Numbered from the stretch's first letter, positions 33,984 through 47,195 are shown. The stretch: DNA of 64,000 nt from Candidatus Micrarchaeota archaeon (GCA_018812625.1 JAHJDH010000033.1:3622-67621); one strand, 5' to 3'. Made by a program: numbers and translations. The notes: a model not told the origin generated them from the letters alone.

Positions 33984-34012
33984 TTAAGGTCCAGTGTTAC
34001 GAGTTTTGTGTT

Positions 34013-34930
34013 GTGAAAAATACGTCAGAGTTCTTACCATACACGGAACCAGTTTTGGAAGTCCAAAACACAATATCTGATTTTGGCGGTCTATGGGCCC
34101 ATCTGAAATCAGATACCAAGCCAACAAGGCGCGAAACAAAACTAATGTGGCCAGAAGCAAAATTAATTTTGGAGTTCCTGGGCCGACATCTCCCCAAACA
34201 AAGATTGATCCGTGCACTGACGGTACTGAGCGACCATCGCAAGCGCAGATTCCTGCGCAGCAGGATTCCAAAATACGGATCTTTGAACAAAGGATTCACG
34301 GAAGATGAGCTTGTAAAGTTCCTGAATTGCGTGGATGATCATAAGGCTCTGCTACTATTCACTTTTCAGGCGGTTTTGGGCCTTCGGATCAGTGAAGCAG
34401 TGCAAATTCACGTCAAAGACATCAATCTCAAAACCAGGGAACTGAAGATCCACAATGTCAAGTGCGATCGTCTTGACGTTCTGCCAATCCCCCCACAACT
34501 TTTTGAACAAACAATAAAATACATCAGCGACTGGGAGGATGAAATCGTCAGGCACGAAGGCTACCTTTTCTACAGCGAGTTCTATCCAAGAAACAACAAG
34601 ACTCCCCATATCCGTACAGACTATGCAAGAGTATACTTCACCAAAGCACTAAACAAAGCCAAGCTTGACGAAACCTACGCAATTTCAACCGGTTCACAGC
34701 CCAAGCTCATGCACCGCCTCACCACTCACAGCTTGCGTCACTATGCCATCACTAACTTCGCAAAGAAAAACAACGGAAATGTCATGCTGACAAGCAAATT
34801 CGCACGCCATAGGAAGATCAATACGACGATGGTTTATGTCTACACCCAAAAAGAAGAACTTTACAGAAGCATAGATCTACTTCAGGATGGAACATTGGAA
34901 AAAATCCGGAAACTACAAGAGATCGAATGA
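34013..34930 (+). CDS. tyrosine recombinase / integrase
   Basis: Box I LGLRISEAVQI, box II HSLRHYAITNF, and catalytic Tyr region TTMVYVYT. GTG start; the true start is uncertain. Confidence 0.88.
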   Translation: MKNTSEFLPYTEPVLEVQNTISDFGGLWAHLKSDTKPTRRETKLMWPEAKLILEFLGRHLPKQRLIRALTVLSDHRKRRFLRSRIPKYGSLNKGFTEDELVKFLNCVDDHKALLLFTFQAVLGLRISEAVQIHVKDINLKTRELKIHNVKCDRLDVLPIPPQLFEQTIKYISDWEDEIVRHEGYLFYSEFYPRNNKTPHIRTDYARVYFTKALNKAKLDETYAISTGSQPKLMHRLTTHSLRHYAITNFAKKNNGNVMLTSKFARHRKINTTMVYVYTQKEELYRSIDLLQDGTLEKIRKLQEIE

Positions 34931-35017
34931 CTATTCTTTTCTTTCTAATAATGTCTTTAGATCTTTTTGATATGGATTCTCATTTAATACTAGAAAAGGT
35001 GAGATTGATTCAAAAGA

Positions 35018-35299
35018 TTACAGTGTGTAAATGATGCGCTTTGTTTCTGAGTCATATTTTTTGTTGACTAGCTGATTCTTTACTAATTTTTCAACAGCTT
35101 TATACGATGATCCTGAATATTTAACTAAACCTTCGCTGTTAAGTATTGAGTAAATTTCCTCATTTGTACGTGGTTTTTCTTCCAATAAGAGTAAAATTTT
35201 TAGGTGCATTCTATTTGACAATACGCAAAATTTTTTATTAAGATCCTCAAGATTGTCATAATTCAATTCAATTTGTGATAATATCATATAATCATCCAC
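35018..35299 (-). CDS. winged-helix (ArsR-like) transcriptional regulator
   Basis: 93 aa with VLSNRMHLKILLLLEEKPRTNEEIYSIL..AVEKLVKNQLV..KRIIYTL, the ArsR/wHTH pattern. Confidence 0.65.
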   Translation of the reverse strand: MDDYMILSQIELNYDNLEDLNKKFCVLSNRMHLKILLLLEEKPRTNEEIYSILNSEGLVKYSGSSYKAVEKLVKNQLVNKKYDSETKRIIYTL

Positions 35300-35317
35300 C
35301 GAGTATAATTTCCATGG

Positions 35318-35335
35318 AAGGAAAATTATTTCCTT
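35318..35335. promoter_or_regulatory. palindrome AAGGAAA-ATTA-TTTCCTT in the divergent intergenic region (putative operator)
   Basis: 7-bp perfect arms, located 19-36 nt upstream of the wHTH gene start and 46-63 nt upstream of the McrB-like gene. Confidence 0.35.
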
Positions 35336-35380
35336 TTATGGAAGAGAACTTTAATATTTTTAAATGTATATGTCTACTCC

Positions 35381-37660
35381 ATGCCCAACAATGATCTTCG
35401 TAAGAAAAAAGAGGAATTTGAACAAGATAATTTAACAATTTATAACGAAACAAAAGAAAAAGCACGAAACGAATGGACGAATTTTGATAAGAAGTTTGGG
35501 AAAGACAGTTTAACAAACTTGACATTATTGAGCTATTCTCTAGGTGATCCTGATTCTGATTCTTTTTCTAACTGGGTCGAAAAAAAGACCTCTTCTGTTG
35601 CAACGATTTCTGGTGGAAGTGCCGCAATGTTCTATGTCTGGTCTGAAAAAAAGCTCTATCCAACCAAATTTAAACAGGGAATGCTCGGGCACCATAACAC
35701 AAGGATTATTGACCGTAGTGTTGCTGAAATTGAATTTCAAAAAATCAAGAATACGATATTGAAAATTATATTGTTGGCCGAAAAAAATGATTTTAAATCA
35801 ATTGACGAATTAGATCTTCTTTCACCAGTTGTTAAGTCAAAAATATTGTACCTTTACTTCCCCGATAAGATTACTAGCATCATGGCTTCCACATACGTGG
35901 CTGAAGCATGTAAAATGATGGGCGTACTTTTTGATGATGATCATCCAATGGATTCGAATCACAGACTTTTAGCGAATATGAAAAAAAATGGAGAGTTTAA
36001 TGATTGGGATTCGCATAAAATCGGTTCTTTCCTTTTGTACTTGCTTGCCTATCGAACCCAGCCGAGCATTTTCATTGCTCCAAGACGGAGAGAACATAAA
36101 GGAGCTATAACAGAATCGACTGATGCGTTAGAAGGATATTCCTGGGTAGATGTCGAACCTTATCTAAACGATGATGAAAAACAGAAGTTAGAAGGAAGAA
36201 GTAGGTATCATATTTGGGGTAATAAAGGCGGAAGAACGCAAAAACAATGGCGAAAAATGCAAAAAGGGGATCTTATCCTTTTTTACGGCGACAACATCTT
36301 TTATGCAGCTGGAAAATTATATCATAAGACGCATAATAAGGCACTTGCTGATCATCTGTGGGACACAGATGAAGATGGGAGATCCTGGGGGTATACTTTT
36401 TTTGTTGAAAATCTAAAAACTATTTCAATCCCACTTCATCTATTGAAGCAACTTGCTCCTGAAGTTTATAGTGAGGGATTTCGACCACAACAATTCGTGG
36501 AGATGAATGAAAAATGTCTTGAAAAAATCCACCAGGAATTTGGATCAGTTGAAGGTTTCTTGGATAAGTACTCTGAGCCTCATATATTAAGAGAACTGAA
36601 AGCTCCAATAACTATTCAAGCTCCACAGAAATCAATGGAACAAGAAAATCCATGGAATATTACTCCGGAAATGTTAAATGCCGAGCTTCAGCACTTATAT
36701 TTTGATGAGCCTGATAGTTTTTTTAAAAACTTGTGTAATCTATTAAATTCTGGAAGTAATATAATTCTTGTAGGGCCTCCGGGAACTGGTAAAACCGAAG
36801 TGGCCCTAGCCGTTTCTAAGCTGGCTAAAAAATATGTGCTAGGAAAAGACGGAATATGTCATGTCTTTTCAACTGCAACTTCTGATTGGACAACTTTTGA
36901 TACGATCGGCGGTTATATGCCGACAAAAAGTAATGAGTTAGAGTTCAAAGAAGGACAGTTTCTTAGGGCAATTCGCGATGACAAAATTCTAGTAATCGAT
37001 GAAATAAACAGGGCAGAAATAGACAAGGCATTTGGACAATTGTTTACTGTACTTTCCGGACAAAGCGTTGAGCTGCAGTTTTTAGATGCTAACAATCTGC
37101 CAATAAAATTAGAATCATCCAAAGAAATCCTAAATAGTTTCAAAAAAGATAATAAATACATCATTGGCTCAAATTGGCGCATCCTTGCTACAATGAACAC
37201 CTTGGATAAAGCTGCTCTTTATCAGATGTCATATGCATTCATGAGAAGGTTTGCATTCGTCCATGTTGATGTCCCGATTAATAAATCTGAATGTCTGAAA
37301 ACAATCAACCGGCAAGACAATTATGATATGGATGATGCACTAATACAAAAAATTGGTATTCTGTGGGATTCAATAAGCAAATCCGAACAGGGAAAAGAAA
37401 ACCCAAGACAAATAGGTCCGGCTGTTTTTTCAAGCATTATCAAACTCGTAAAGAATAGCAATGTAGATCCTGCCGACGAAGATAAGCTGGATAAAATATT
37501 AGCCAGTGCAATAATCGCATTTGTCCTGCCACAATTCGAAGGTGCCACTGTCGAAACTGAACTGAAGCCATTGGCAAAGTCCCTTAAAAAATATGAGAAA
37601 CACCTAGCGAGGTTTTTTGAGGAAATGTTTGGAGAAGATTTTGGAAATCTTACGAGGTAG
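35381..37660 (+). CDS. McrB-like AAA+ (AAA_5) restriction NTPase with N-terminal sensor region including a PUA-like (EVE/ASCH-type) module
   Basis: Walker A LVGPPGTGKTE, Walker B ILVIDEINRAE, and McrB-type WRILATMNTLDKA..MRRF. The middle segment reads YHIWGNKGG..WRKMQKGDLILFYGDNIFYAAGKL, the PUA-like pattern. Confidence 0.8.
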   Translation: MPNNDLRKKKEEFEQDNLTIYNETKEKARNEWTNFDKKFGKDSLTNLTLLSYSLGDPDSDSFSNWVEKKTSSVATISGGSAAMFYVWSEKKLYPTKFKQGMLGHHNTRIIDRSVAEIEFQKIKNTILKIILLAEKNDFKSIDELDLLSPVVKSKILYLYFPDKITSIMASTYVAEACKMMGVLFDDDHPMDSNHRLLANMKKNGEFNDWDSHKIGSFLLYLLAYRTQPSIFIAPRRREHKGAITESTDALEGYSWVDVEPYLNDDEKQKLEGRSRYHIWGNKGGRTQKQWRKMQKGDLILFYGDNIFYAAGKLYHKTHNKALADHLWDTDEDGRSWGYTFFVENLKTISIPLHLLKQLAPEVYSEGFRPQQFVEMNEKCLEKIHQEFGSVEGFLDKYSEPHILRELKAPITIQAPQKSMEQENPWNITPEMLNAELQHLYFDEPDSFFKNLCNLLNSGSNIILVGPPGTGKTEVALAVSKLAKKYVLGKDGICHVFSTATSDWTTFDTIGGYMPTKSNELEFKEGQFLRAIRDDKILVIDEINRAEIDKAFGQLFTVLSGQSVELQFLDANNLPIKLESSKEILNSFKKDNKYIIGSNWRILATMNTLDKAALYQMSYAFMRRFAFVHVDVPINKSECLKTINRQDNYDMDDALIQKIGILWDSISKSEQGKENPRQIGPAVFSSIIKLVKNSNVDPADEDKLDKILASAIIAFVLPQFEGATVETELKPLAKSLKKYEKHLARFFEEMFGEDFGNLTR

Positions 37661-37662
37661 TA

Positions 37663-39039
37663 TTGAATATGGTTGAACTCAGAGAAGAAAGACCACTTAA
37701 AGATTATGACTCCGAATTTCTCGACAAACTTAGAGCAGACATTGGAAATGGAATCCTTCAAATATATCTCCATGAATACTCCGAATTACTACCTGAGCAA
37801 CGGAGATTAAAGGACGCGATAGGATCCAATTTTCTGGAACGCATTTGTGGTGCAGATTTAGAAAAATTAAAAAAAATTCATTATTGTATCCGTCGCTCAT
37901 ATGTCGAAGAGTTCAATAGAGAATTAGAAGCATATTTCAGAAATATTGTACATAAAACATCTAACAGAGTATATCCAAGAAAAGGATTTGTTCGTGGTAA
38001 AATTGAATGGAAACGTACTTTTGAAGGTCGACTCTGCCAGGGCAAAGATATGTCACTATTTTTTTGTAAAGAAATTGAGAAAGATTATGACCTGCCAGAG
38101 AATCTTATTCTAAAATTTTTGCTGTTAAAAATCGACTCATATATCTCAAGTTCTAAATTAGTTAAAGAAGGTGATGAAAATATTGAAGAGTGGAAGGTAG
38201 CACTAGCGAAATTAAAACATTTGATTGATAGGATAAAGAAAAATGTATATTTCAAAGAAATCGGCAAGAACTTATCACTGGGTGAATTGGAGCAAGCGAT
38301 CGGTTCCAGAACAGAATATTTGGCAAAAAATTCACGAAGTAAGTTTATCAGAGAACAACTCATTTCCCGTGCCTACGCCGAATATAAAATGCTCATGGTT
38401 TATAACTATTCCAACACACTTGATGAAGTTATCAAAAAAACAATCCTAAGTCCGAAAAACAATTCCCGTCTTTATGAATTATTCGCATTGAATTGCTTAC
38501 TACTTAATTTTATACAGTATACGAAGAAGGGCGACCTAAAACCTTTCAGAGGAACTGGGGATCAAATAGTTAGTTTTGAATTGCCTAAGTCAAATACTCT
38601 GGTATATATCTACGACAATACGCTTCCAACAAATTTCGTGGGAAAAGTTTACCCTAACTTGAAAAAGAGATATTTCCCAGGTACTGATCTAAATTCAGTT
38701 GACGAACAATCTAGAAGACCAGATATAATCATAGAACTAGTATCTACAAAAAATGGCACCGTTAAACGGGAATATATAATATTAGAAGTAAAATTAACGC
38801 GAGATAAGGGGTATATCAAAGAGTCTTTGTATAAAGTAATGGGGTATCTGTATGACTTTTATTTCAATGAAAAAGATATGTTCGCAAAACAGGCGATTCT
38901 TTTAGTTCATGAATGGGAAGAGCAAAGAAATATTGTAGATTCATCATACCCAATAATTTTGTTGAACTATATGAACTATAATGAGAGCATTAAGGAAATA
39001 GTTTTACATTTAACCCATAAACGTCTTAACATATTGTAA
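37663..39039 (+). CDS. McrC-like PD-(D/E)xK nuclease partner
   Basis: It starts 3 nt after the McrB-like stop. C-terminal RRPDIIIELV..YIILEVKLT forms a PD..ExK motif. Confidence 0.65.
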   Translation: MNMVELREERPLKDYDSEFLDKLRADIGNGILQIYLHEYSELLPEQRRLKDAIGSNFLERICGADLEKLKKIHYCIRRSYVEEFNRELEAYFRNIVHKTSNRVYPRKGFVRGKIEWKRTFEGRLCQGKDMSLFFCKEIEKDYDLPENLILKFLLLKIDSYISSSKLVKEGDENIEEWKVALAKLKHLIDRIKKNVYFKEIGKNLSLGELEQAIGSRTEYLAKNSRSKFIREQLISRAYAEYKMLMVYNYSNTLDEVIKKTILSPKNNSRLYELFALNCLLLNFIQYTKKGDLKPFRGTGDQIVSFELPKSNTLVYIYDNTLPTNFVGKVYPNLKKRYFPGTDLNSVDEQSRRPDIIIELVSTKNGTVKREYIILEVKLTRDKGYIKESLYKVMGYLYDFYFNEKDMFAKQAILLVHEWEEQRNIVDSSYPIILLNYMNYNESIKEIVLHLTHKRLNIL

Positions 39040-39070
39040 TATATTTGACTAGCAACGAATGCATTGTTCA

Positions 39071-40681
39071 CTATTGATTTTCTTCTATCTTTTTTTGAAC
39101 TAATGGTAAAAAGCAACTTTCGTAAATTCTTTTTGAAGCAGTAGATCCATAAGAATCTATTTTTGTCGGAAGTAATGTTTCTTTTTTGCTATAAAGTGCT
39201 TCAATGAATTTACCAAATGAACGTTCAAGATCAGACTGATTATCCTTGTAGAATTGTCGCAATTTTAAAAATACTCCAAATCCAGCATTTGATTTATAAA
39301 AATCTTCGAAATCCTTTTCACAAATATATTTCAAAGTTGCTAGATCAGATGAAAGTCCTTTAGAAAATTCAATTATTTTATTGTCCTCCTCCCCATTGTC
39401 ATTTATTAATTTTCTAAACTGAGGATCTGATTTTAAAGCGGTCACAAGACCAATAATTGTTGGTGTTTCCCTTGTCCTTTTTATGCCTACTGTCTTGTGG
39501 GTGTAAATTTGATTTTTTAGCACTGAGTCATTATTCATGTTCAAGTACAGTATGATTTTCGAAGCAATTTTTTTAGCAAAAAGTCTGTTTTTTCTGCTTA
39601 TCGACATTCCTATAAGAAGAACACAAACGAGATTCGGATCAACAGTTTTCTGAGTCGAATTAATATCAATGAACATTTGCATCTCATCTTCGTCACTCAA
39701 ATTATCAAAAATTACAACTGGTAATCTATTCCCTTCTCTTTGTTCAACTTTTAATTTTGCAAAGCCACAGACCCTATGCTGTCCATCTATTATCTTGAAA
39801 GATAGGTATGATTCTGGGACTCTAATTTTGACTGGAACTACGGGGTCATTTTCCTGTATGTTTTCACTTTCCTTAAGTTTTAAGGTATATCGACTTAATG
39901 CCACGTCAGATTTCAATATTATTGCATTTGGGAAAAGATGGTGGTGGTTGGAATTCTCGACATATTTCCAAATGTCCTTGATTTTTGATTCTTCTAAGAA
40001 TCTTTGATATCCTCCGATTTCATCTTCGAATGCCGATCTACGATGAACATATGCATTTTTTAAAAGGAATTCTGGTGAGAGAGATGCAACATAAAAAACA
40101 TGTCCATATCTATTCCTTATCTTTAATGCAGGTTCTGTGGAATTTTTTTCTTTAATTTTTTTCATTTTCATTGCTTTAAGTAGATTAAACCTGGCAAATT
40201 CCCCTAGAATCTTCTTATAATACATTAATTCATCTAATGATCCTTTGTTGAGTATGTAATTGTCATCATTTTCTAATACTCCTTTGTCGTCAATTTCTTT
40301 GCTTTTTTTCCAATAAATATCATCATACTTTAGGTCGACAAAAAGACGTTTAACCCTTAAAGTTTTTGGTATCTGCGGGTATTTTTCCAATACAGCTTCA
40401 AGGTATTCCTTTTTTGACCATTTTAGAAAAAAATCTTCTGCTTTAGCAAAACATTTTTCTTCCTGGTCTGTTACCTCCACAAGGATAATATAATCATCAT
40501 CACAAATGAAGATAGCGTCTAACTGGCCTACTGTTCTTCCTTTGTGGACAATGCTGCAACCTTTTCCACCGTCTAAGAAACCAAAACCAATTTCAACTAA
40601 AAATTCTGATACTTTGTATTCTGACAAAACATCAAAATCACTTTCAGAAAATTCTTTTTCTAAATACTTAGATCTTACCAT
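39071..40681 (-). CDS. DGQHR-domain (DndB/DpdB-like, ParB-fold) protein with an extra N-terminal domain
   Basis: Literal motif FKIIDGQHRVCGFAKL. The N-terminal ~100 aa (..GQLDAIFICDDDYIILVEVTD..) are weakly reminiscent of a restriction-endonuclease fold. Confidence 0.75.
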   Translation of the reverse strand: MVRSKYLEKEFSESDFDVLSEYKVSEFLVEIGFGFLDGGKGCSIVHKGRTVGQLDAIFICDDDYIILVEVTDQEEKCFAKAEDFFLKWSKKEYLEAVLEKYPQIPKTLRVKRLFVDLKYDDIYWKKSKEIDDKGVLENDDNYILNKGSLDELMYYKKILGEFARFNLLKAMKMKKIKEKNSTEPALKIRNRYGHVFYVASLSPEFLLKNAYVHRRSAFEDEIGGYQRFLEESKIKDIWKYVENSNHHHLFPNAIILKSDVALSRYTLKLKESENIQENDPVVPVKIRVPESYLSFKIIDGQHRVCGFAKLKVEQREGNRLPVVIFDNLSDEDEMQMFIDINSTQKTVDPNLVCVLLIGMSISRKNRLFAKKIASKIILYLNMNNDSVLKNQIYTHKTVGIKRTRETPTIIGLVTALKSDPQFRKLINDNGEEDNKIIEFSKGLSSDLATLKYICEKDFEDFYKSNAGFGVFLKLRQFYKDNQSDLERSFGKFIEALYSKKETLLPTKIDSYGSTASKRIYESCFLPLVQKKIEENQ

Positions 40682-40851
40682 TCTCTTTCCTCAGATGTTT
40701 TACTGTTGCTGATCTGTTATATTAGGCTAATTTCATAATGATTGTAAGGCTATATATAACTTATTATAATCCACTTCTATGACTTGTCAAATATGTTATT
40801 AATCAATGATTTCATGTGAAGTATTATTATCTTTTAGGCTGATTTCCCTCT

Positions 40852-41907
40852 ATGCGTTCTCCTGTCTCCAAATTTGACCATGTACAAGTTGTCAAATATG
40901 CTGGCAACAAGGCAAAATTATTAGGTCACCTGATCCCAATCATCACAAAAATTCTTGCACCAAATCAAACTCTTCTTGATCTTTTTGCCGGAACCCATGC
41001 TGTTGGTTATGCCCTTAAGACTAGAAATCGGATAATCGGCAATGATGTTCAAGCATATGGTTGGGCTATAGGAAAAGGAATATTGGAAAGTAATTATTCG
41101 CTCTCAACCGAATCAGCAAAAGATGAAATCTTAAGTATGTTTGATGATTTTGATTATGAAAAATATCATCTGTTTTCTGAAATATATTCAAATACTTACT
41201 TCGGTAAAAAACAATGTCTTGAGGTAGATAAATTAAAATTTGCGATTGATAACTCCAATATTCCAACCAAGAAGAAGTTTTCCTATTTATGTTGTCTTAT
41301 GTACTCTATGGGTCAAAATGCCTCTACTACTGGTTATTTTGCACAATATCTACCTCGAGAAAAAACAAAACAACAAAAATCTAGAAGTATCATAGACCAC
41401 TTCTTAAAAAAATGCAATTCTTTTAACCTTGTAAAAGGATCGTCCAGAAACATTTCTTTGAAATATGATTACAAAAAATTATTTTCTGATAAAAGACTTA
41501 CTCACTACATTGAAGATAGTGCTGTTATCTATGCAGATCCCCCATACTCTCAGGCGCACTATTCTCGTTATTATCATATTCTTGAAACGTTGGTTGAATA
41601 TGACTATCCAAAAACATCTTACAAGGGACTTTATAGGCCTGGACGTTTTCTGAGTGATTTTTGCAGAAAATCAACTGTTGAGAAAGAATTTCAAAGAATG
41701 TTTTCATCTATTGCAACTCATGACAAAAAACTTGTTTTGTCCTATGTCAATTCTGGAAGTGGTTTGTTGCCTGAGAAAAAACTACTTGAAATTGCATCTA
41801 CTGAATTTAGTAATGTTTCTGAGCCCATAAGATTTAACTATCACCATTCTCGGTTGGGCAATGGAAAACCTCTCAAGGTAGAGGAATATGTGCTTGTTTG
41901 TCATTAA
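40852..41907 (+). CDS. Dam-like (D12 class) N6-adenine DNA methyltransferase
   Basis: VKYAGNKAKLL (Dam N-terminal motif), LLDLFAGTHAVG (FxGxG) and IYADPPYSQAHYSRYYH (DPPY). Confidence 0.85.
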   Translation: MRSPVSKFDHVQVVKYAGNKAKLLGHLIPIITKILAPNQTLLDLFAGTHAVGYALKTRNRIIGNDVQAYGWAIGKGILESNYSLSTESAKDEILSMFDDFDYEKYHLFSEIYSNTYFGKKQCLEVDKLKFAIDNSNIPTKKKFSYLCCLMYSMGQNASTTGYFAQYLPREKTKQQKSRSIIDHFLKKCNSFNLVKGSSRNISLKYDYKKLFSDKRLTHYIEDSAVIYADPPYSQAHYSRYYHILETLVEYDYPKTSYKGLYRPGRFLSDFCRKSTVEKEFQRMFSSIATHDKKLVLSYVNSGSGLLPEKKLLEIASTEFSNVSEPIRFNYHHSRLGNGKPLKVEEYVLVCH

Positions 41908-41986
41908 TCCATAGTACTACTTTTTGACAGTCTAATCTTACACACATATCCAAAAATAGATACTTTTATAAATCATTTGTTGCATA

Positions 41987-42018
41987 TTAATGTCATTAGC
42001 AAAATGTTAATGTGATTA
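41987..42018. promoter_or_regulatory. two operator-like near-palindromic 12-mers spaced 20 bp, between a TATA-like box and the 77-aa gene
   Basis: TTAATGTCATTA (41987-41998) and TTAATGTGATTA (42007-42018). The core TAATG-T-CATTA is palindromic. TTTTATAAAT lies at about 41964-41973. Confidence 0.4.
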
Positions 42019-42019
42019 A

Positions 42020-42253
42020 ATGGTAAAACCAAGAGTTGAAAATGAATCTAAAAGCGATAAATTCAAAAGGATAGCCACTATGAGAACTAGGAAAATTATT
42101 GATGCCATTAGGCTTCTTGGAAATTGTTCGAATACCTCGACCTATGGGTATACTGATGAAGATGTGAAAGCAATCTACAACGCCATTGAAAAAGAGATTA
42201 AACGGACCAAGGTACTTTTTCAAAAGAAAGTTGATGATGATTTTTCATTATAG
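42020..42253 (+). CDS. small hypothetical protein (77 aa), possible controller/regulator of the downstream operon
   Basis: First gene of a tightly spaced operon, basic and helical, preceded by the operator-like repeats. No HTH motif confidently recognised. Confidence 0.5.
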   Translation: MVKPRVENESKSDKFKRIATMRTRKIIDAIRLLGNCSNTSTYGYTDEDVKAIYNAIEKEIKRTKVLFQKKVDDDFSL

Positions 42254-42262
42254 GTGATTTGA

Positions 42263-44032
42263 TTGACTAAAAAAATAAAGATTTTAGAAAAACCTACTGA
42301 TTCCCAAAGACAGGAGATATTGATGAGAATCTCCCAATTATATAATCATCCAGAATATGTCGTTTATGAATACATTCAAAACTCTATTGACAGTGCTTTT
42401 GAAATTAAGGACAAAGAACCTTCATATGATACAAGAAAAATATTAGTGCATATCGATTATTCTAAAAAACAGTTTATCATTCAGGATAACTGTGCTGGTA
42501 TGGATGAAGAAGAGATTGAAAACCTTCCAAATAGCGTCTTTCAATCTAGGAAAAAGAGATCTCCTTGGATAACTGGGGAATTTGGGTATGGAATTCAATC
42601 CTTTAGGGCTTGGTTCGACGAAATCCTTATTGTTTCAAAGGCAAGTGACCAATCAAAGGCAACAGCTATCATCTTTAATCAAAGTGTCGATGCTGAAATA
42701 GATGAAAAAAAGAAATTGCCTGATTTTGGAGCTGTTTACCCAGTTAGGGCTAGTTCAATAAACTACAAAAGACCGACCGGAACTGATGTTTGGATAAAAG
42801 GAATTAGAAAAAAATTACGGAAAAAATCTTTTGACTTTATTGCAAAAAACCTTTTTACATTGATCCCTATCCACTTTGAAGATGCTCTTGAATCTGGATT
42901 GGTAGAAATCCAGATTTATGACTGGAAACGTAGATCTGGAAAATTCTTTCCACGTGTTTACCAATTAAATCCACTGAGACTTTCAGATATCCCAGGAGAA
43001 GACATATCTGGAACTATAAATGATAACTCTGGTAAAAAACTTGCTAGTTATCACTTTAAAATTGTCGAACCTATCTACTTCAACAAAACACCAGAGATCA
43101 AGGATTACAAACCAAGGTTAAGTAGGCTTGGTACTGAACTCGGAAAACTAAGTCGCTTAAAAAGCCTCCAAGATTTTGGTAGATCGAACGATGTAGATCT
43201 ATTGATCTGGGATAGGCCTGAATTAATCGGAAAAATAAATATAGAAAGAAAAATCCCCATCCGCATTGACAGGACTGATTTAGAACCATCATTGGAAAGT
43301 CAAGTATTGTTTGATAAAATTGCAGAATTAACCCTCCAAATCCAAGAAAAATTTGATGAAATGGATAAAAGGAAACTCGAAGAACATGAAGAATCACTTT
43401 CAGAGATAATGTCCGATGTTTTTACTGACCTCTCAAAAGAGTTAGATGCTGATTTATTTGGACGAAAAAGAAAAATACGCAGTTCTAGCGGCTTAATAAC
43501 TTCTATGATAGAAACTGGTGCTGGATTTGTTCTTGGTAACAAAGATTTCCATGGAGACGGATCTCAAAAAGGAGACGTGTCTTCTCAAATTGATGATTCA
43601 GGAAAAGAAGGTATCGAATCAACTATATCTGATGAAAAAACCCCATCTCCTTCAGAAGAAGGTACTGGACAAATGCCATATAAAGATATAAAACAAAGAG
43701 GCATGGGCGTGGAATTCAAACCTCTTGGTACTACTCAACCTCCATCAAATGTTTGGGGAGATAGAATGATAGTAGTCAATACCGAACATCCATTTTACCG
43801 TGAAAGACTTACTGAACATAAGAGCAAAATTATTACAAAAAGACTTATAGCTTACCTAGCTATTGTAACTACTCCATGGTTCCTTGATAAATATTGGAAT
43901 AAAAGAGGTGTAGAGCCTGAAAGTACCGATAAAATTCAAAAAATTGTCGAGACGATAGCGAGAGTAGAAAAAATACTTTGGGATAAAAGAGAACTCATAA
44001 AGAAAAAAGTTGCAGAGGTAGAAGATGTTTGA
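42263..44032 (+). CDS. GHKL-superfamily (MORC/HATPase_c_3-like) ATPase
   Basis: N-box EYIQNSIDSA, G1 box QDNCAGMDEEE and G2 box GEFGYGIQSF. The remaining ~350 aa have no recognised motif. Confidence 0.8.
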   Translation: MTKKIKILEKPTDSQRQEILMRISQLYNHPEYVVYEYIQNSIDSAFEIKDKEPSYDTRKILVHIDYSKKQFIIQDNCAGMDEEEIENLPNSVFQSRKKRSPWITGEFGYGIQSFRAWFDEILIVSKASDQSKATAIIFNQSVDAEIDEKKKLPDFGAVYPVRASSINYKRPTGTDVWIKGIRKKLRKKSFDFIAKNLFTLIPIHFEDALESGLVEIQIYDWKRRSGKFFPRVYQLNPLRLSDIPGEDISGTINDNSGKKLASYHFKIVEPIYFNKTPEIKDYKPRLSRLGTELGKLSRLKSLQDFGRSNDVDLLIWDRPELIGKINIERKIPIRIDRTDLEPSLESQVLFDKIAELTLQIQEKFDEMDKRKLEEHEESLSEIMSDVFTDLSKELDADLFGRKRKIRSSSGLITSMIETGAGFVLGNKDFHGDGSQKGDVSSQIDDSGKEGIESTISDEKTPSPSEEGTGQMPYKDIKQRGMGVEFKPLGTTQPPSNVWGDRMIVVNTEHPFYRERLTEHKSKIITKRLIAYLAIVTTPWFLDKYWNKRGVEPESTDKIQKIVETIARVEKILWDKRELIKKKVAEVEDV

Positions 44033-44777
44033 TAAAACAGTTCTCGTAAAACTCCAAAAACTTGCAAGTGAATATAAAAGGGCGGATCTGCCAAATACTA
44101 AAATTAGCAAACTATGGGAAATTGGAGATTATCTTATAAAAATTGGTTTAACCTCACAAGGGGATTTTTGGAAAATTCAGAAACAAGACGTTTTTGTTAG
44201 TAGGGCCATCCTGCTTAGATCATATTGGGTCCGAAAAGCATTTACTAAGTCCGAAGTGGAAAAAATAAATCTAAATATCTCAAAAATTTTACCAGTCCTT
44301 CCTTATCTTGCTCCAAAATCAAAAAAATTATCTCCAAAGGAAAAACAAGTGATCAAGAAGAAAATATTACATAATGAAATCCCCACTGGAATAAAATTAG
44401 CCAAAAAATCTAAACAAAGAAAAATAGAAACTCTGGAACTTGTAAAAAGACTTAATCTCTTGATAAAAACTATTGAATCTGAAAAAATTAGTCTCTTTAA
44501 GAAACAATATCCAAAACAAAATTTTGAACATTTGAAGAGGCAAATTATTGATCTACTTCAGGGCGCTTTACCAACCGAAAAACACACAGATTCCTTAGAG
44601 CATGCAAAAAGCTTTGCCTTAAATATCGATCCTCAACTCTCTGAAATATTCGATATCTTATACATTGCAGCAAAAAAAACAAGGACGGACTCAAGACGCA
44701 TGCAAAAAAGAGTTTTTGACCCATATCTGATTTCTCCTTTTGTGGATCAACTCTTCTTCAAAAAGAAAGAAATCTGA
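44025..44777 (+). CDS. hypothetical helical protein, translationally coupled to the GHKL ATPase
   Basis: The ATG lies 8 nt inside the end of the ATPase gene. 250 aa, K-rich and helical, with no recognised motif. Confidence 0.55.
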   Translation: MFDKTVLVKLQKLASEYKRADLPNTKISKLWEIGDYLIKIGLTSQGDFWKIQKQDVFVSRAILLRSYWVRKAFTKSEVEKINLNISKILPVLPYLAPKSKKLSPKEKQVIKKKILHNEIPTGIKLAKKSKQRKIETLELVKRLNLLIKTIESEKISLFKKQYPKQNFEHLKRQIIDLLQGALPTEKHTDSLEHAKSFALNIDPQLSEIFDILYIAAKKTRTDSRRMQKRVFDPYLISPFVDQLFFKKKEI

Positions 44778-44834
44778 GAATCTTTCTCATCAATATGACT
44801 AAAAATTGTGACTTCTTTCATTTATTGTGATAAC

Positions 44835-45728
44835 ATGAATAACTATTGGATATTTGTGGTAAATGACTGGAAAGATTCATCTGGTCACAAGCACAAGGCA
44901 AATGAAATTTTTGATACTCTGAAAGTAGATAAAGTTTGGGGTATTGGAGAGCGTACTCCAAATAGAAAGAATTTGTCTTCTGGAGATAAAGTTGTTTTTT
45001 ATCAAGCAGGTTCAAATGGACAAAGATTTCTTGGTCATGGAACCTTATCATCTAAATGTAAACATTTTTCTAAAGATTCTCATTATTCTGAAAAAACTAA
45101 TAATATCATTTACGAATGGGGTAACATTGTTACATTCGAAGATTTTGATGCTTTTGAACAATCAAAACCTCTTTCAGATCTGGCCGAAAACTTGGATTTC
45201 ATTGTAAAAAAGGAAATGGCTGCGGCTTATTTTCAAAGTGGTGTCAGATCAATAACAAAGACTGATTTTGACATGATTGTTTCTGAAGATCTTGTTAAAA
45301 TATCTCAAAAAGGCCAAGAAGAAGGTATTGAAGATAAAGGTTTGTTCGTTCTTGAGAAATATCTCCAAGATTTTATTGTTAGTAATTGGGATAACATCGA
45401 TTTTGGTCAAAAACTTCGTATTTATCAAGATGATGATGGAAATCCTGGTCCGCAATATACTACTGATGTGGGTTATATAGATATCTTAGCAATTGATGAA
45501 AAAAATAATTTTGTTGTAATCGAACTGAAAAAAGGACGTGAGAGCGACAAAGTTGTAGGTCAGTTACTCAGATATATCGGCTGGGTAAAAAAGAATTTGG
45601 CAACCAAAGACCAAGGTGTTCAAGGAATTATAATCTGTAAAGATCTTGATGAAAAACTTGAATATGCCGTATCTGCAGTTTCAAACATTTCGATAAAACG
45701 GTATAGTATGAGCTTTAAATTACTCTAA
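44835..45728 (+). CDS. PUA-like (EVE-type) domain fused to a NucS/DUF91-type PD-(D/E)xK endonuclease domain
   Basis: N-terminus YWIFVVNDW..VWGIGE..LSSGDKVVFYQAGSNGQRFLGHGTL. C-terminus DVGYIDILAIDEKNNFVVIELKKGRESDKVVGQLLRYIGW, the NucS C-terminal signature. Confidence 0.75.
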   Translation: MNNYWIFVVNDWKDSSGHKHKANEIFDTLKVDKVWGIGERTPNRKNLSSGDKVVFYQAGSNGQRFLGHGTLSSKCKHFSKDSHYSEKTNNIIYEWGNIVTFEDFDAFEQSKPLSDLAENLDFIVKKEMAAAYFQSGVRSITKTDFDMIVSEDLVKISQKGQEEGIEDKGLFVLEKYLQDFIVSNWDNIDFGQKLRIYQDDDGNPGPQYTTDVGYIDILAIDEKNNFVVIELKKGRESDKVVGQLLRYIGWVKKNLATKDQGVQGIIICKDLDEKLEYAVSAVSNISIKRYSMSFKLL

Positions 45729-45736
45729 TCTCTCTC

Positions 45737-45809
45737 GGCAAAACGGATTTAATGCCCAAGCCTTGCCAGTTCGGTGCTTTGCACACGAAGACAATAAAAC
45801 CGTTTTGCC
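45737..45809. other. GC-enriched structured element A (long hairpin)
   Basis: A perfect 10-bp closing helix GGCAAAACGG / CCGTTTTGCC encloses the inner hairpin TTCGGTGC-TTT-GCACACGAA. It starts 9 nt after the nuclease stop codon. Confidence 0.4.
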
Positions 45810-45863
45810 TTGGTTTCCTGTCTTTCTTCAATTCTAATTTTCTAAATGCCTAGTTGAAACCTC

Positions 45864-45935
45864 GGAAGTTTACTCGCTTCATCATCAGCCCTGTAATGGT
45901 GCGGGCTTCGAGTGAAGCTCGCTTGAATAACTTCC
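45864..45935. other. GC-enriched structured element B (three stacked helices)
   Basis: Helices GGAAGTT/AACTTCC (45864-70 / 45929-35), GCTTCA/TGAAGC (45876-81 / 45913-18) and AGCCC/GGGCT (45887-91 / 45903-07). An alternative pairing is ACTCG/CGAGT. Confidence 0.4.
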
Positions 45936-46046
45936 TCGACAGGAGAGTTCGGGGAAGAGCAGGTGATGAAAAATGAATGTAGGAAATTTCGAAGGAGTTT
46001 GGGAAGGAGAATGTTATCGGTGCTGGTTTGAAAAGAAGGTGGAAGA

Positions 46047-46400
46047 ATGACGCAAAATTTCAAGAATCTGAAAGTATATGGAGAATCATTTAGATTATCT
46101 AAAGATCTCTACCTTTTCTTTCATGATAAAAAAATGTCTTTTAGAACAAAAGAGCAAGTGTTAGCCTCAGCTTCTTCAATCTGTGCAAATCTAGCTGAAA
46201 TGGCTGCATTTGACTCAAAAGGAGCAATCAAGCAGAAGGTTACAACTTGCATTGGAGAATGCAATGAAACTGAATATTGGCTTGATTTGATGCACGAGTT
46301 AAAGATTCTGCCTCAAAGAGAGCATATTGATTTTCTTGGGAGACTTGTGAAAATCCGGAGTATGCTCTTCAATTTGAAAAGAAGTGTGGAAGGTGGTTGA
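46047..46400 (+). CDS. four-helix-bundle protein (23S rRNA intervening-sequence protein / DGR Avd-like family)
   Basis: 117 aa starting NLKVYGESFRLSKDLY..RTKEQVLASASSICANLAEMAA..GECNETEYWLDL.., the characteristic pattern of this family. Confidence 0.7.
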   Translation: MTQNFKNLKVYGESFRLSKDLYLFFHDKKMSFRTKEQVLASASSICANLAEMAAFDSKGAIKQKVTTCIGECNETEYWLDLMHELKILPQREHIDFLGRLVKIRSMLFNLKRSVEGG

Positions 46401-46475
46401 ATGTAATAATCTGGAAATAATGAATGAAAACTCCCAAGGTTGCTCCTATGCTTTGCATAGCTGGTCAGGAAGATA

Positions 46476-47195
46476 CTATCGCTTCACTAGTGTTTTTGAT
46501 TCATCCTTGATGATCTTGTTCATTTTTCCTATCATTATGTCAATAATACTAATAGCTTCATCAAAGCCTTTATCATGACTGCTCAGAAAAGAAAGCTCTG
46601 CATCATTGATTATTTTATCTAATGATTTGTATCTTAGAAGTACTCTATCTAATATGGGTTCATCATATTTTACTCTGCGTCCAATTTTTTCATCCTTCAA
46701 CAATATATCCTGGAGTTCTCCATATTCTTGAGTAAGCTTTTCATTTACTTTTGAAAATTTCTTTCTCTCCTCCTCATTTATCTTTATGAACTTTCTTTGT
46801 TTTGCTATTGCTTTATCAACCATTTTTCTTAATTTAATTAAATTTTTCTTAAATGCAAGTAATTTCGCCCTATTAGATTTTGCTTCTTCAGGCGTGTACC
46901 CTCTATTAACCGCATTATTTTTTTCTTTGACAGTTGTTTTTTCTGTAAATTTCTTTTTAGGCTGCCCTTTTGTTTGTTCTCTTGTTTGACCTTTGAAAAA
47001 TGAAGGTATCTCTATTTTTTCAAACTTTTCTAGGTGTAAAGTTATCCCGCCGAAAATTATTAGTACGATCGAATAAATGCCATTTACTCCCAACTTACCT
47101 TCCACGAGTGATACTAGTAAAACTGCCACTCCCACAAGGAAGGTAATTATTGAAATTAGTACTTGCGACCATTCCTTAATTATTTCCAAATCCAT
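46476..47195 (-). CDS. hypothetical membrane protein with a long coiled-coil tail
   Basis: Two N-terminal TM helices, then a K/E-rich helical region. Confidence 0.55.
   Translation of the reverse strand: MDLEIIKEWSQVLISIITFLVGVAVLLVSLVEGKLGVNGIYSIVLIIFGGITLHLEKFEKIEIPSFFKGQTREQTKGQPKKKFTEKTTVKEKNNAVNRGYTPEEAKSNRAKLLAFKKNLIKLRKMVDKAIAKQRKFIKINEEERKKFSKVNEKLTQEYGELQDILLKDEKIGRRVKYDEPILDRVLLRYKSLDKIINDAELSFLSSHDKGFDEAISIIDIMIGKMNKIIKDESKTLVKR

What the first reader, a model, noticed from the sequence alone, without database searches (positions are those of the whole stretch)
39071..41907. Divergent pair: DGQHR (DndB/DpdB-like) protein with an extra N-terminal domain, and a Dam-like methylase
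The DGQHR motif is literal (IIDGQHRVCGF). In the known Dnd and Dpd systems this domain accompanies sulfur or deazaguanine DNA-modification genes, none of which is present here. Instead it shares a 170-bp divergent promoter region with a D12-class N6-adenine methylase (DPPY, FAGTHAVG). That suggests an R-M-like module in which the ParB-fold DGQHR protein is the sensing or cleaving partner. Its N-terminal ~100 aa (..DAIFICDDDYIILVEVTD..) might be a degenerate nuclease fold. A 13-nt repeat, TTAGGCT(A/G)ATTTC at 40722 and 40834, lies upstream of both genes.
Basis: partly seen in the sequence, partly recalled or inferred. Interest (0 to 1): 0.65.

Follow-up and report, generated by a model that had tools for sequence, protein, structure and literature searches.

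The report
Nuclease-ParB (DGQHR) protein paired with methylase
An archaeal mobile defence island carries an adenine DNA methylase back-to-back with an uncharacterised protein that joins a restriction-nuclease-like domain to a ParB-like nucleotide switch; relatives of this protein sit next to DNA methylases in many unrelated microbes, so it is probably a little-studied kind of restriction-modification partner.

Summary
A 536-aa DGQHR protein (39071-40681, -) and a D12-class N6-adenine methylase (40852-41907, +) diverge from a 170-bp spacer that holds the reported 13-nt repeat.

The DGQHR protein has three parts:
- an N-terminal PD-(D/E)XK nuclease-fold domain, with D55 and E69 conserved but the canonical Lys replaced by Ser/Thr
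- an intact ParB/Srx-type DGQHR domain
- a helical C-terminus

It belongs to a widespread, apparently uncharacterised family.

In 52 non-redundant loci, 33 have a DNA methylase or a Type I R-M system within three genes. The hits peak at the immediate neighbours. They include 4-nt-overlap operons, two-gene cassettes and DpnII-type cassettes. The N-terminal domain was found on no viral contig.

The window's methylase belongs to a different D12 clade. That clade also recurs beside ParB-fold proteins, and its closest relative travels with the downstream small-protein/GHKL-ATPase/250-aa genes.

The R-M-like reading is therefore supported at family level. Cleavage, methylation sensitivity and NTP dependence remain inferred.

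All of this is cargo of a 13.6-kb element integrated into a two-intron tRNA-Ile gene. I rate it a new variant of a known kind, of moderate interest.

The parts
39071..40681 (-). Gene for the 536-aa three-domain DGQHR protein
   Evidence: ORF. TIGR03187 DGQHR scores 111.3 bits. The AF2 model built with a 24-sequence alignment has pLDDT 81.5 and pTM 0.69.
40166..40648 (-). N-terminal PD-(D/E)XK nuclease-fold domain (residues ~12-172). The motif is G52-Q-L-D55 ... L-V-E69-V-T71 ... K80 ... K87-W88.
   Evidence: Top Foldseek PDB hits are all PD-(D/E)XK nucleases: NucS/EndoMS, Nt.BspD6I, Card1, Can2, FokI, XisH (prob 0.9-1.0, E 0.02-0.3). Isolated domains of family members hit UPF0102 (8/30) and NERD (5/30). 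hhalign lines GEID..IEV(S/T) up with GYID..IELK of a NucS-like nuclease. Conservation in 72 members: D55 70/72, E/D69 70/72, S/T71 56/72, K80 58/72, K/R87 65/72.
39482..40144 (-). DGQHR (ParB/Srx-fold) domain, residues ~180-400. It carries GGYQR (223-227), FPN (250-252), DGQHR (299-303), E333 and FIDIN (337-341).
   Evidence: Family models. All of these residues are invariant or nearly so in A1 and in every context class. The ParB-like PadC appears among the Foldseek hits.
39074..39481 (-). Helical C-terminal domain (residues ~401-536), function unknown
   Evidence: The AF2 secondary structure is all-helical. There is no Pfam hit. The domain is present in same-architecture relatives.
40682..40851 (.). 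170-bp divergent intergenic region that holds the repeats and candidate promoters
   Evidence: Sequence. There is a palindromic TATA-like/-10-like core at 40752-40770. A 12/12 TTGACA-16-TATAAT match lies on the - strand (40790->40763) and a 10/12 match on the + strand (40742-40770).
40722..40734 (+). Copy 1 of the 13-nt direct repeat, TTAGGCTAATTTC
40834..40846 (+). Copy 2 of the 13-nt direct repeat, TTAGGCTGATTTC, 5 nt before the methylase ATG
40784..40900 (.). Cluster of three GTCAAAT(A/T)TG copies: 40786 (+), 40869-40878 (-) and 40891 (+). It includes an exact 12-nt repeat, TTGTCAAATATG, at 40784 and 40889.
   Evidence: These are the only three matches in 64 kb, against 0.72 expected. Repeats are listed.
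40852..41907 (+). D12-class (alpha-type) N6-adenine DNA methyltransferase, 351 aa. Motifs: KYAGNK (15-20), FAGTHAVG (45-52), DPPY (229-232).
   Evidence: It belongs to a distinct clade and falls below the Dam TIGR00571 cutoff (23.7 vs 114.85).
42020..42253 (+). 77-aa conserved small protein (s77), co-inherited with the methylase
   Evidence: 62% identical in L007. A 48%-identical homologue lies divergent to a DGQHR-family gene in L021.
42263..44032 (+). GHKL (HATPase_c_3, paraMORC-like) ATPase, 589 aa
   Evidence: Pfam PF13589. 61% identical in L007. An HATPase_c_3 gene also follows the 62%-identical methylase in L010-L013.
44025..44777 (+). 250-aa protein with no known domain, the last member of the conserved methylase unit
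   Evidence: 53% identical in L007. No family hit.
44808..45728 (+). EVE + NucS-like PD-(D/E)XK nuclease (PADLOC PDC-S02). It may belong to the same operon.
   Evidence: A homologue follows the DGQHR gene in L087.
33961..47549 (.). The 13.6-kb integrated element that carries all of the above. It is bounded by an exact 23-nt direct repeat (33961-33983 and 47527-47549) and has a tyrosine integrase at 34013-34930.
   Evidence: repeat; integrase; GC 0.32-0.35 inside vs 0.39-0.41 outside.

Best explanation
The pair is the core of a restriction-modification-like self/non-self module, carried on a 13.6-kb integrative defence island in an archaeon.

Proposed mechanism:
- The D12-class enzyme methylates adenine at its target sites in host DNA.
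- The 536-aa protein is the effector or sensor. Its ParB/Srx-type DGQHR domain binds a nucleotide triphosphate and DNA, as a loading, clamping or switching module. Its N-terminal PD-(D/E)XK domain cuts DNA that lacks the mark.
- The two genes are transcribed divergently from one 170-bp control region whose local repeats could couple their expression.
- The methylase also heads a conserved operon (77-aa protein, GHKL ATPase, 250-aa protein, then an EVE-nuclease). That operon probably works with the pair or alongside it.

Shown: the domain identities, conservation of the motif residues, family-level linkage to methylases, and the mobile-island context.

Inferred: nuclease activity, blockage by m6A, NTP dependence, the regulatory role of the repeats, and cooperation with the GHKL operon.
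For: 1. Architecture. The DGQHR domain is above its curated cutoff. The AF2 model has pLDDT 81.5. The N-terminal domain matches only PD-(D/E)XK nucleases in Foldseek and matches UPF0102/NERD in Pfam.

2. Conservation. D55 and E/D69 are kept in 70/72 members, K80 in 58/72 and K/R87 in 65/72. All ParB-fold motifs are invariant, in every genomic context class.

3. The family is real and widespread. There are 484 cluster representatives at E <= 1e-10 and 16 at E <= 1e-30. Full-length matches come from Woesearchaeota, Heimdallarchaeota, Nitrososphaerota, Ignavibacteria, Bacteroidota, Planctomycetota and others.

4. Linkage to methylases.
- 33 of 52 non-redundant loci have a D12, N6_N4 or window-type methylase, or a Type I R-M system, within 3 genes (21 of 29 with both flanks present).
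- Methylase density is 22/92 at distance 1, 12/80 at distance 2 and 0/146 at distances 6-12.
- Arrangements include 1-nt gaps and 4-nt overlaps, and HTH-controller + methylase + DGQHR operons.
- Seven two-gene DGQHR + D12 cassettes sit between housekeeping genes.
- Two loci have the window's divergent layout.

5. From the methylase side. The window-type clade sits beside ParB-fold proteins in 7 of 13 contexts: the window, L007 (ParB_N), L014 (two GmrSD-like genes), L046 and L083 (DndB-like), L133 (ParB_N) and L134 (AIPR).

6. The architecture is cellular, not viral. None of the 17 IMG/VR relatives carries the N-terminal domain.

7. General precedent. ParB-like DUF262/DGQHR domains fused to HNH, PD-(D/E)xK or HEPN domains and linked to R-M systems were noted in comparative genomics (PMC3632139). 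A DndB-like protein binds ATP/GTP (bioRxiv 10.1101/2025.10.10.680097).
Against: - No activity has been measured for any member.
- The canonical Lys of the (D/E)xK motif is Ser/Thr in 56/72 members, so the domain could be inactive or non-canonical.
- Foldseek E-values are weak (0.02-0.3), although the probabilities are high and the hits are consistent.
- In 4 loci a DpnII endonuclease lies between the methylase and the DGQHR gene, and in one locus a DUF6996/6997 protein does. There the DGQHR protein is not needed as the nuclease.
- The window's methylase is not of the clade that usually accompanies this family. Its nearest relative keeps the GHKL operon but not the DGQHR gene.
- 19 of 52 loci show no methylase nearby, though many of these are short contigs.
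- Some loci are phylogenetically non-independent. The seven class-B cassettes share the same flanking genes.
Confidence: 0.5

Rival explanations
1. DndB-like controller. The DGQHR protein is an NTP-modulated DNA-binding regulator. It binds the repeats in the shared 170-bp region, or the methylase's substrate DNA, and throttles methylase expression or activity. DndB does this for phosphorothioation. The nuclease-fold domain would serve DNA binding only.
For: - DndB is a DGQHR protein that represses the divergent dnd operon through direct repeats in the promoter (PMC4507180, listed; summarised in PMC10853773).
- The window has a divergent layout with two sets of local repeats found nowhere else in 64 kb.
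- The canonical Lys is missing.
- The family coexists with a genuine REase (DpnII) in 4 loci.
Against: - Several loci already carry a dedicated HTH controller upstream of the methylase: L065, L066, L075, L085.
- D55 and E69 are about 97% conserved, which is unexpected for a purely structural domain.
- Many relatives are co-directional with the methylase, with overlapping stop and start codons rather than a shared promoter.
- The protein scores far below the DndB equivalog cutoff (16.4 vs 328 bits).
Confidence: 0.2
2. The methylase's functional partners are the downstream 77-aa/GHKL-ATPase/250-aa genes (plus perhaps the EVE-NucS nuclease), forming a paraMORC-type R-M-like system. The DGQHR gene is an exchangeable accessory or back-up effector docked next to it, not the primary restriction component.
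For: - L007 conserves the methylase (62%), s77 (62%), GHKL (61%) and p250 (53%) but has a ParB_N protein in place of the DGQHR gene.
- L010-L013 have an HATPase_c_3 gene overlapping the end of a 62%-identical methylase.
- paraMORC GHKL ATPases are known to sit in R-M neighbourhoods (Iyer et al. 2008, as cited in PMC8011034).
- The s77 homologue also appears next to a DGQHR-family gene in L021.
Against: - The DGQHR family forms self-sufficient two-gene cassettes with methylases elsewhere, without any GHKL gene.
- A ParB-fold gene is present next to the methylase in both the window and L007, which suggests it fills a required slot rather than being incidental.
- No nuclease domain was detected in the GHKL or 250-aa proteins.
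Confidence: 0.2
3. Independent Type IV-like or abortive-infection nuclease. The DGQHR protein acts on modified or foreign DNA, or on nucleotides, independently of the neighbouring methylase, as GmrSD/BrxU/SspE do. The adjacency would reflect only defence-island clustering.
For: - ParB-like NTPase + nuclease fusions (GmrSD, SspE) are modification-dependent enzymes (PMC4619093; PMC12839542).
- The island also holds McrBC-like and EVE-nuclease Type IV-like genes.
- Some relatives sit next to Mrr, HEPN or Type I systems rather than a solitary methylase.
Against: - Methylase hits peak sharply at the adjacent gene.
- There are 4-nt overlaps and two-gene cassettes flanked by housekeeping genes.
- The association is reciprocal from the methylase side.
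- There is no match to GmrSD_N/GmrSD_C models.
Confidence: 0.1

Closest known systems
DndB (regulator of the Dnd phosphorothioation system)
   Same: Both have a DGQHR ParB/Srx-fold domain with the QR pair, DGQHR and FxxxN motifs. Both are encoded next to DNA-modification genes. Both are divergently transcribed, with direct repeats in the shared control region.
   Different: There are no dndA/C/D/E genes nearby. The protein scores 16.4 bits against the 328-bit equivalog cutoff. It has an extra N-terminal PD-(D/E)XK domain. Its partner is an m6A methylase.
DpdB (ParB-like ATPase of the 7-deazaguanine Dpd system)
   Same: It is the best PADLOC match (1e-21). It is also a DGQHR protein that works with a DNA-modifying enzyme.
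   Different: The protein scores 67.8 bits against a 300-bit cutoff. There is no DpdA/TGT or DpdC nearby. The nuclease-fold domain is absent from DpdB-type models, and the match covers only residues 181-396.
GmrSD / BrxU / SspE (DUF262 ParB-like NTPase fused to a DUF1524 HNH nuclease)
   Same: Both follow the same logic: a ParB/Srx-type NTP-binding domain fused to a DNA nuclease domain in a defence context. A relative of the window's methylase is sandwiched between two GmrSD-like genes (L014).
   Different: Here the nuclease is a PD-(D/E)XK domain at the N-terminus, not an HNH at the C-terminus. The motif is DGQHR, not DGQQR. There is no Pfam GmrSD_N/C hit. GmrSD-type enzymes attack modified DNA, whereas the tight operons with methylases suggest the opposite polarity here.
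DpnII / MboI-type Type II R-M cassettes (Dam-like D12 methylase, REase, second N6_N4 methylase)
   Same: Relatives of the DGQHR protein lie inside exactly such cassettes: HTH-D12-DpnII-DGQHR-N6_N4 in L065, L081, L085 and L109. In L017 a relative occupies the REase position between the two methylases.
   Different: The DGQHR protein is unrelated to the DpnII endonuclease family. The window has a different D12 clade, no second methylase and no DpnII gene.
paraMORC / GHKL-ATPase-associated R-M-like systems (Iyer, Abhiman & Aravind 2008)
   Same: An HATPase_c_3 ATPase is encoded in the same operon as the methylase, and the association is conserved in L007 and L010.
   Different: Those descriptions are neighbourhood-level only. 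The specific 77-aa/GHKL/250-aa triad and its link to a DGQHR-nuclease protein were not found in the papers I could search.
YraN/UPF0102, NERD and NucS-type PD-(D/E)XK nucleases
   Same: The fold is shared, as is the G-E-I-D ... h-h-h-h-E-V-x signature of the N-terminal domain.
   Different: The third-motif Lys is Ser/Thr. Conserved Lys residues (K80, K87) lie in the following helix instead. The domain is fused to a ParB-fold domain.

Membership tests
DGQHR domain proteins (TIGR03187 / Pfam DndB PF14072) | HMM score above the curated cutoff | tested here: met
   TIGR03187 scores 111.3 bits against 58.85. PF14072 scores 44.2 bits against 29.1.
DGQHR domain proteins (TIGR03187 / Pfam DndB PF14072) | Nearly invariant DGQHR pentapeptide plus the QR pair and FxxxN motif (as described in PMC4619093) | tested here: met
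   DGQHR at 299-303, GGYQR at 223-227, FIDIN at 337-341. These are invariant in A1.
DndB (TIGR03233 equivalog) | Equivalog-level HMM score | tested here: not met
   16.4 bits against a cutoff of 328.
DndB (TIGR03233 equivalog) | Encoded with dndCDE (and dndA) phosphorothioation genes | tested here: not met
   No such Pfam families among the called genes within 10 kb on either side.
DpdB (NF041060 equivalog) | Equivalog-level HMM score, and a neighbouring dpdA (TGT-like) gene | tested here: not met
   67.8 bits against a cutoff of 300. No TGT-family gene in the neighbourhood.
DNA phosphorothioation-associated DGQHR protein 1 (TIGR04172) | Equivalog-level HMM score | tested here: not met
   90.8 bits against a cutoff of 450.
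D12-class N6-adenine DNA methyltransferases (PF02086) | HMM score above cutoff, with the SAM-binding FxGxG and catalytic DPPY motifs in alpha order | tested here: met
   66.2 bits against 22. FAGTHAVG at 45-52 lies before DPPY at 229-232.
Dam subfamily (TIGR00571, GATC methylases) | Subfamily HMM score | tested here: not met
   23.7 bits against a cutoff of 114.85. Specificity is unknown. GATC is not depleted in the window (O/E 0.93-0.95).
PD-(D/E)XK nuclease superfamily | Restriction-endonuclease-like alpha/beta fold | tested here: met
   In the AF2 model the N-terminal blocks have pLDDT around 90. The top Foldseek hits are exclusively PD-(D/E)XK nucleases (prob 0.9-1.0, but E 0.02-0.3). UPF0102 and NERD hits appear in 8/30 and 5/30 isolated domains.
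PD-(D/E)XK nuclease superfamily | Catalytic D ... (D/E)-x-K triad | tested here: inconclusive
   D55 and E69 are present and about 97% conserved. The K position is T71 (S/T in 56/72 members, K in 2). K80 and K87 in the next helix might substitute. The model coordinates could not be inspected.
Type II restriction-modification system | A methyltransferase gene adjacent to a nuclease gene, with the linkage conserved across genomes | tested here: met
   Family-level linkage in 33/52 loci, peaking at the adjacent gene. Reciprocal linkage holds for the methylase clade.
Type II restriction-modification system | An endonuclease that cuts a defined site and is blocked by the cognate methylation | not testable with these tools
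   This needs biochemistry and methylome data.
GmrSD-type Type IV enzymes | DUF262 (GmrSD_N) plus DUF1524 (GmrSD_C, HNH) domains | tested here: not met
   No PF03235 or PF07510 hit for the window protein.
ParB-CTPase-fold NTP switches | NTP binding and hydrolysis through the box II Arg motif | not testable with these tools
   The motif residues are intact, including R303 of DGQHR. Binding was not tested. A DndB-like protein bound ATP/GTP in vitro.

The most novel reading that the evidence does not exclude
The family is a previously unrecognised class of NTP-gated restriction enzyme. A ParB/Srx-type nucleotide switch (the DGQHR domain) loads or clamps the protein on DNA and licenses a non-canonical (Lys-less) PD-(D/E)XK nuclease to cut DNA that lacks m6A. 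The enzyme would be modular enough to plug into Dam/DpnII-type, Type I and GHKL-ATPase-associated methylation systems in both archaea and bacteria.
Probability: 0.3. Interest if true: 0.7.

Novelty: new variant of a known kind. Interest (0 to 1): 0.55.

Why it matters
DGQHR/ParB-fold proteins are known from exotic DNA-modification systems (phosphorothioate, 7-deazaguanine), and their biochemical role there is still debated: regulator, ATPase helper or nuclease.

This family ties the same fold, fused to a nuclease-like domain, to ordinary adenine methylation. It does so in dozens of lineages and in minimal two-gene cassettes. That gives a much simpler setting in which to ask what a DGQHR domain does.

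If the protein is a methylation-sensitive, NTP-gated nuclease, it would add a new enzyme architecture to restriction-modification. It would also extend the ParB-type nucleotide switch to immunity in archaea.

If it is a regulator, it would show that DndB-like control is a general feature of DNA-modification systems.

Tried and rejected
1. Single-sequence AF2 of the DGQHR protein gave pLDDT 31.6 and was unusable. It was replaced by the alignment-based model.

2. The word-indexed homologue search found only distant, DGQHR-domain-only relatives, both with the single sequence and with the profile. The same-architecture family appeared only in the exhaustive search.

3. Sequence searches of PDB with the full protein, with the methylase and with the N-terminal profile gave nothing meaningful.

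4. Pfam on the window's own N- and C-terminal segments gave no hits.

5. I looked for the other window island genes next to DGQHR relatives by tblastn. Only one methylase homologue (L046) and one s77 homologue (L021) turned up, and no McrBC. McrBC is therefore not part of the unit.

6. L083's 597-aa and 273-aa genes were suspected to be GHKL/p250 homologues. They are an AAA_15/21 ATPase and an HNH nuclease instead.

7. GATC and other 4-mer palindrome depletion as a clue to specificity showed no signal.

8. The idea that 40715-40805 is a decayed duplicate of the methylase 5' end: only the two short repeats align, so it is not supported.

9. Brute-force intron removal around the att site gave ambiguous tRNA identities. 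The manual parse gave a clean tRNA-Ile.

10. Literature searches for a prior description of this exact architecture found only general statements.

11. Sigma-70 promoter matches are of doubtful relevance because the host is an archaeon (aEF-2).


Full report
**1. Observation**

The two ORFs are as described. ORF 39071-40681 (-) encodes a 536-aa protein with a literal DGQHR motif (residues 299-303). ORF 40852-41907 (+) encodes a 351-aa protein with FAGTHAVG and DPPY.

- The DGQHR domain model TIGR03187 scores 111.3 bits against a cutoff of 58.85.
- The DndB, DpdB and 'DGQHR_dnd_1' equivalog models all fall far below their cutoffs.
- The methylase passes Pfam MethyltransfD12 (66.2 vs 22). It matches a PADLOC Type II MTase model end to end (E = 2.6e-31) but fails the Dam subfamily cutoff.
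- The spacer is exactly 170 bp. It contains TTAGGCT(A/G)ATTTC at 40722 and 40834, the only close matches in the 64-kb window.
- No dnd or dpd gene lies within 10 kb.

**2. Setting**

The window comes from an archaeal MAG (GCA_018822695.1). It carries an archaeal EF-2 at 1018 bits and an archaeal-type SecY.

The pair lies in a low-GC stretch, 0.32-0.35 against 0.39-0.41 outside. An exact 23-nt direct repeat at 33961-33983 and 47527-47549 brackets this stretch.

The left copy overlaps the 3' end of an unannotated tRNA-Ile(GAU) gene with two introns. The gene folds into a clean cloverleaf only after in-silico splicing. A tyrosine integrase follows at 34013-34930. So the pair is cargo of a 13.6-kb integrated element.

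The element's gene order is:
- integrase
- a small wHTH protein
- a McrB-like AAA_5 protein
- a McrC-like protein (PD...EVK motif)
- the DGQHR gene (convergent with McrC)
- the methylase
- a 77-aa gene, a GHKL (HATPase_c_3) ATPase and a 250-aa gene
- an EVE + NucS-like nuclease
- a 23S_rRNA_IVP gene and a 239-aa gene

**3. The DGQHR protein**

The word-indexed search found only distant relatives that share the DGQHR domain alone.

The exhaustive search found a real family with the same length and end-to-end matches. There are 16 cluster representatives at E <= 1e-30 and 484 at E <= 1e-10. A second group of roughly 750-800-aa relatives also turned up.

An alignment of 24 members (A1) shows two blocks of conservation:
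- N-terminal block: G52, D55, E69, W88.
- ParB-fold block: R214, G224-Q226-R227, P251-N252, D299-G-Q-H-R303, E333, F337, N341.

With this alignment AF2 gives pLDDT 81.5 and pTM 0.69, and about 90 over the N-terminal domain. The single-sequence model had been useless.

Foldseek against PDB returns only PD-(D/E)XK nucleases for the N-terminal part: NucS/EndoMS, Nt.BspD6I, Card1, Can2, R2 endonuclease, XisH, FokI, Cas4-like, Shedu and HamA. It returns ParB-like PadC for the middle part. Probabilities are 0.9-1.0 but E-values only 0.02-0.3.

Isolated N-terminal domains of 30 members hit UPF0102/YraN (8 of 30) and NERD (5 of 30) in Pfam. hhalign lines the GEID...IEV(S/T) signature up with GYID...IELK of the island's own NucS-like nuclease.

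Across 72 members:

| Position | Conservation |
|---|---|
| D55 | 70/72 |
| E/D69 | 70/72 |
| S/T71 (the canonical Lys position) | 56/72; Lys in only 2 |
| K80 | 58/72 |
| K/R87 | 65/72 |

The domain is thus a PD-(D/E)XK fold that retains its metal-binding acidic residues but has a non-canonical third motif. Activity is plausible but unproven.

**4. Is it linked to methylases elsewhere?**

Scans of GTDB genomes and JGI metagenomes with A1 gave 52 loci, non-redundant at 90% identity, whose protein includes the N-terminal domain. I called ORFs, clustered the neighbours and annotated cluster representatives with Pfam.

- The largest neighbour cluster (25 loci) is a D12 methylase. The second (9 loci) is an N6_N4 methylase. 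Three loci have a divergent Type I hsdRSM set. One has a window-type methylase.
- HMMs built from these clusters give methylase hits of 22/92 ORFs at gene distance 1, 12/80 at distance 2, 2/67 at 3, 2/59 at 4, 1/52 at 5 and 0/146 at distances 6-12.
- Overall 33 of 52 loci are positive, and 21 of 29 when both flanks are at least 1.5 kb.

The arrangements fall into classes:
- A: [HTH controller]-D12-DGQHR co-directional, with gaps of 1-54 nt or a 4-nt overlap.
- B: DGQHR-D12 with 4-nt overlaps, as a two-gene cassette between PepM42 and VTT housekeeping genes (seven loci, probably one lineage).
- C: HTH-D12-DpnII endonuclease-DGQHR-N6_N4, in four loci. One further locus has a DUF6996/6997 protein in the DpnII position.
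- D: divergent D12/DGQHR, as in the window (two loci).
- E: next to Type I systems.

The adjacency occurs in at least seven phylum-level lineages among the named genomes. The motif residues are kept in all classes, including those that also have DpnII. On IMG/VR viral contigs 17 relatives exist, but none carries the N-terminal domain. Only one INPHARED phage has a DGQHR-only hit.

**5. The methylase side**

The window's methylase belongs to a separate D12 clade. The contexts of its relatives are:

| Locus (identity to window methylase) | Context |
|---|---|
| L007 (62%) | Followed by a ParB_N protein; divergent from DUF4357-s77-GHKL-222 aa |
| L010-13 (62%) | Overlapped by an HATPase_c_3 gene |
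| L005/L006 (61%), L008 (53%) | Convergent with a 1767-aa DEAD/Helicase_C/MZB/PLD fusion |
| L014 (45%) | Between two GmrSD_N/C genes |
| L133 (37%) | Two genes after a ParB_N gene, in a dnd-associated-like cluster |
| L134 (41%) | Convergent with an AIPR gene |
| L135, L137 (39-41%) | Paired with an N6_N4 methylase |
| L046, L083 (28-30%) | In operons with DndB-like proteins |

So 7 of 13 contexts contain a ParB-superfamily neighbour.

L007 conserves the methylase, s77, GHKL and the 250-aa protein at 62, 62, 61 and 53% identity. This marks a co-inherited four-gene unit in which the ParB-fold partner is exchangeable.

**6. Control region**

Besides the 13-nt repeat, GTCAAAT(A/T)TG occurs three times in the whole window, all within 40786-40900, against 0.72 expected. 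An exact 12-mer recurs at 40784 and 40889.

A 12/12 bacterial-type promoter match faces the DGQHR gene, and a 10/12 match faces the methylase. They share a palindromic ATTATAAT core next to a TATATATA stretch.

The host is an archaeon, so the TATA-like core may be what matters. The bacterial consensus may be a relic of the cassette's origin or a coincidence. No related intergenic region is available, so conservation cannot be tested. Any regulatory role is inference.

**7. Interpretation**

The most economical reading is an R-M-like module. The methylase marks self DNA, and the nuclease-ParB protein senses and probably cuts unmarked DNA, perhaps in an NTP-gated way. The GHKL operon acts with it or beside it.

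The rivals are:
- a DndB-like controller of methylation
- a system whose primary partners are the GHKL-operon genes, with the DGQHR protein as an accessory
- an independent Type IV-like enzyme

The evidence against each is given in its field. None is excluded without biochemistry.

**8. Relation to what is known**

Comparative-genomics papers already state that ParB-like COG1479/DUF262/DGQHR domains are fused to HNH, PD-(D/E)xK or HEPN nucleases and linked to R-M, Dnd and Pgl/BREX loci (PMC3632139). They also state that DndB may be a regulator, an NTPase or a nuclease (PMC10853773).

A 2025 survey of the ParB-CTPase fold reports ATP/GTP binding by a DndB-like protein.

In the searchable literature I found no description of this particular architecture or of its systematic pairing with Dam/DpnII-type methylases. 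A REBASE entry cannot be excluded. RefSeq names relatives only 'DGQHR domain-containing protein'.

I therefore classify it as a new variant of a known kind, R-M-like defence with an unusual effector. It is of moderate interest, and higher if the NTP-gated nuclease mechanism proves true.

Noticed in passing
window 33961-33983 and 47527-47549: An exact 23-nt direct repeat, CTCGCCGGGCCCATTTTCTTATT, brackets the integrase and the whole low-GC defence island. These are probably the attL/attR sites of a 13.6-kb integrated element.
   Followed up: partly
window 33798-33973 (+): An unannotated tRNA-Ile(GAU) gene with two introns (50 nt in the D-loop, 52 nt after position 37). The two introns share a CTTTTGGAAAAAG hairpin. 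ARAGORN and Rfam miss the gene on genomic DNA, but the spliced sequence gives a clean 74-nt cloverleaf. Its 3' end is the integration site.
   Followed up: yes
window 35981-35988 (in the McrB-like gene 35381-37660): The poly-A tract is A8 in the window and in a Logan contig, but A7 in the GenBank MAG record. In the GenBank record the 759-aa McrB-like ORF is split into 242- and 385-aa pieces. This is either phase variation or an assembly error.
   Followed up: partly
window 35381-37660 (+): The N-terminal 270 residues of the McrB-like protein match the PADLOC PD-T4-1 model (E = 6e-25). A weak EVE-like stretch precedes the AAA_5 motor.
   Followed up: no
window 40852-44777; L007 105-4986: The methylase, the 77-aa protein, the GHKL (HATPase_c_3) ATPase and the 250-aa protein form a co-inherited four-gene unit (62/62/61/53% identity in L007). 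The 77-aa and 250-aa proteins have no known domains.
   Followed up: partly
window 44808-45728 (+); L087 7838-8920: An EVE + NucS-like PD-(D/E)XK nuclease (PADLOC PDC-S02) ends the methylase operon. A homologue lies directly after a DGQHR-family gene and two methylases in L087.
   Followed up: no
window 40742-40790: A perfect bacterial sigma-70 consensus (TTGACA-16-TATAAT, 12/12) faces the DGQHR gene in an archaeal genome. It overlaps a 10/12 match on the other strand. It may be a relic of a bacterial origin of the cassette.
   Followed up: no
L139 (N. aromaticivorans pNL1) 4782-10978; L140 (Agrobacterium plasmid) 4695-10984: The long (770-786-aa) relatives of the DGQHR protein sit next to an operon of a short DGQHR protein, a radical SAM enzyme and an ATP-binding protein. 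This may be a different, uncharacterised DNA-modification system.
   Followed up: no
L005 4053-9356; L008 9054-14354: Close relatives of the window's methylase (61% and 53% identity) are convergent with a 1767-aa DEAD/Helicase_C/MZB/PLD fusion protein plus a 437-aa gene and an HTH gene. The set looks like a fused DISARM-like system.
   Followed up: no
L014 3548-8476: A 45%-identical methylase is sandwiched, with overlapping or closely spaced genes, between two GmrSD_N/GmrSD_C (DUF262-DUF1524) genes, next to an MmeI-like enzyme.
   Followed up: no
L065 3872-8100; L081; L085; L109: Complete DpnII-type cassettes (HTH controller, D12 methylase, DpnII endonuclease, N6_N4 methylase) carry a DGQHR-family gene inserted after the endonuclease.
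   Followed up: partly
L018 5235-6563; L080 2656-3882: An unknown 408-442-aa protein with no Pfam hit recurs next to DGQHR-family genes and methylases in two unrelated loci.
   Followed up: no
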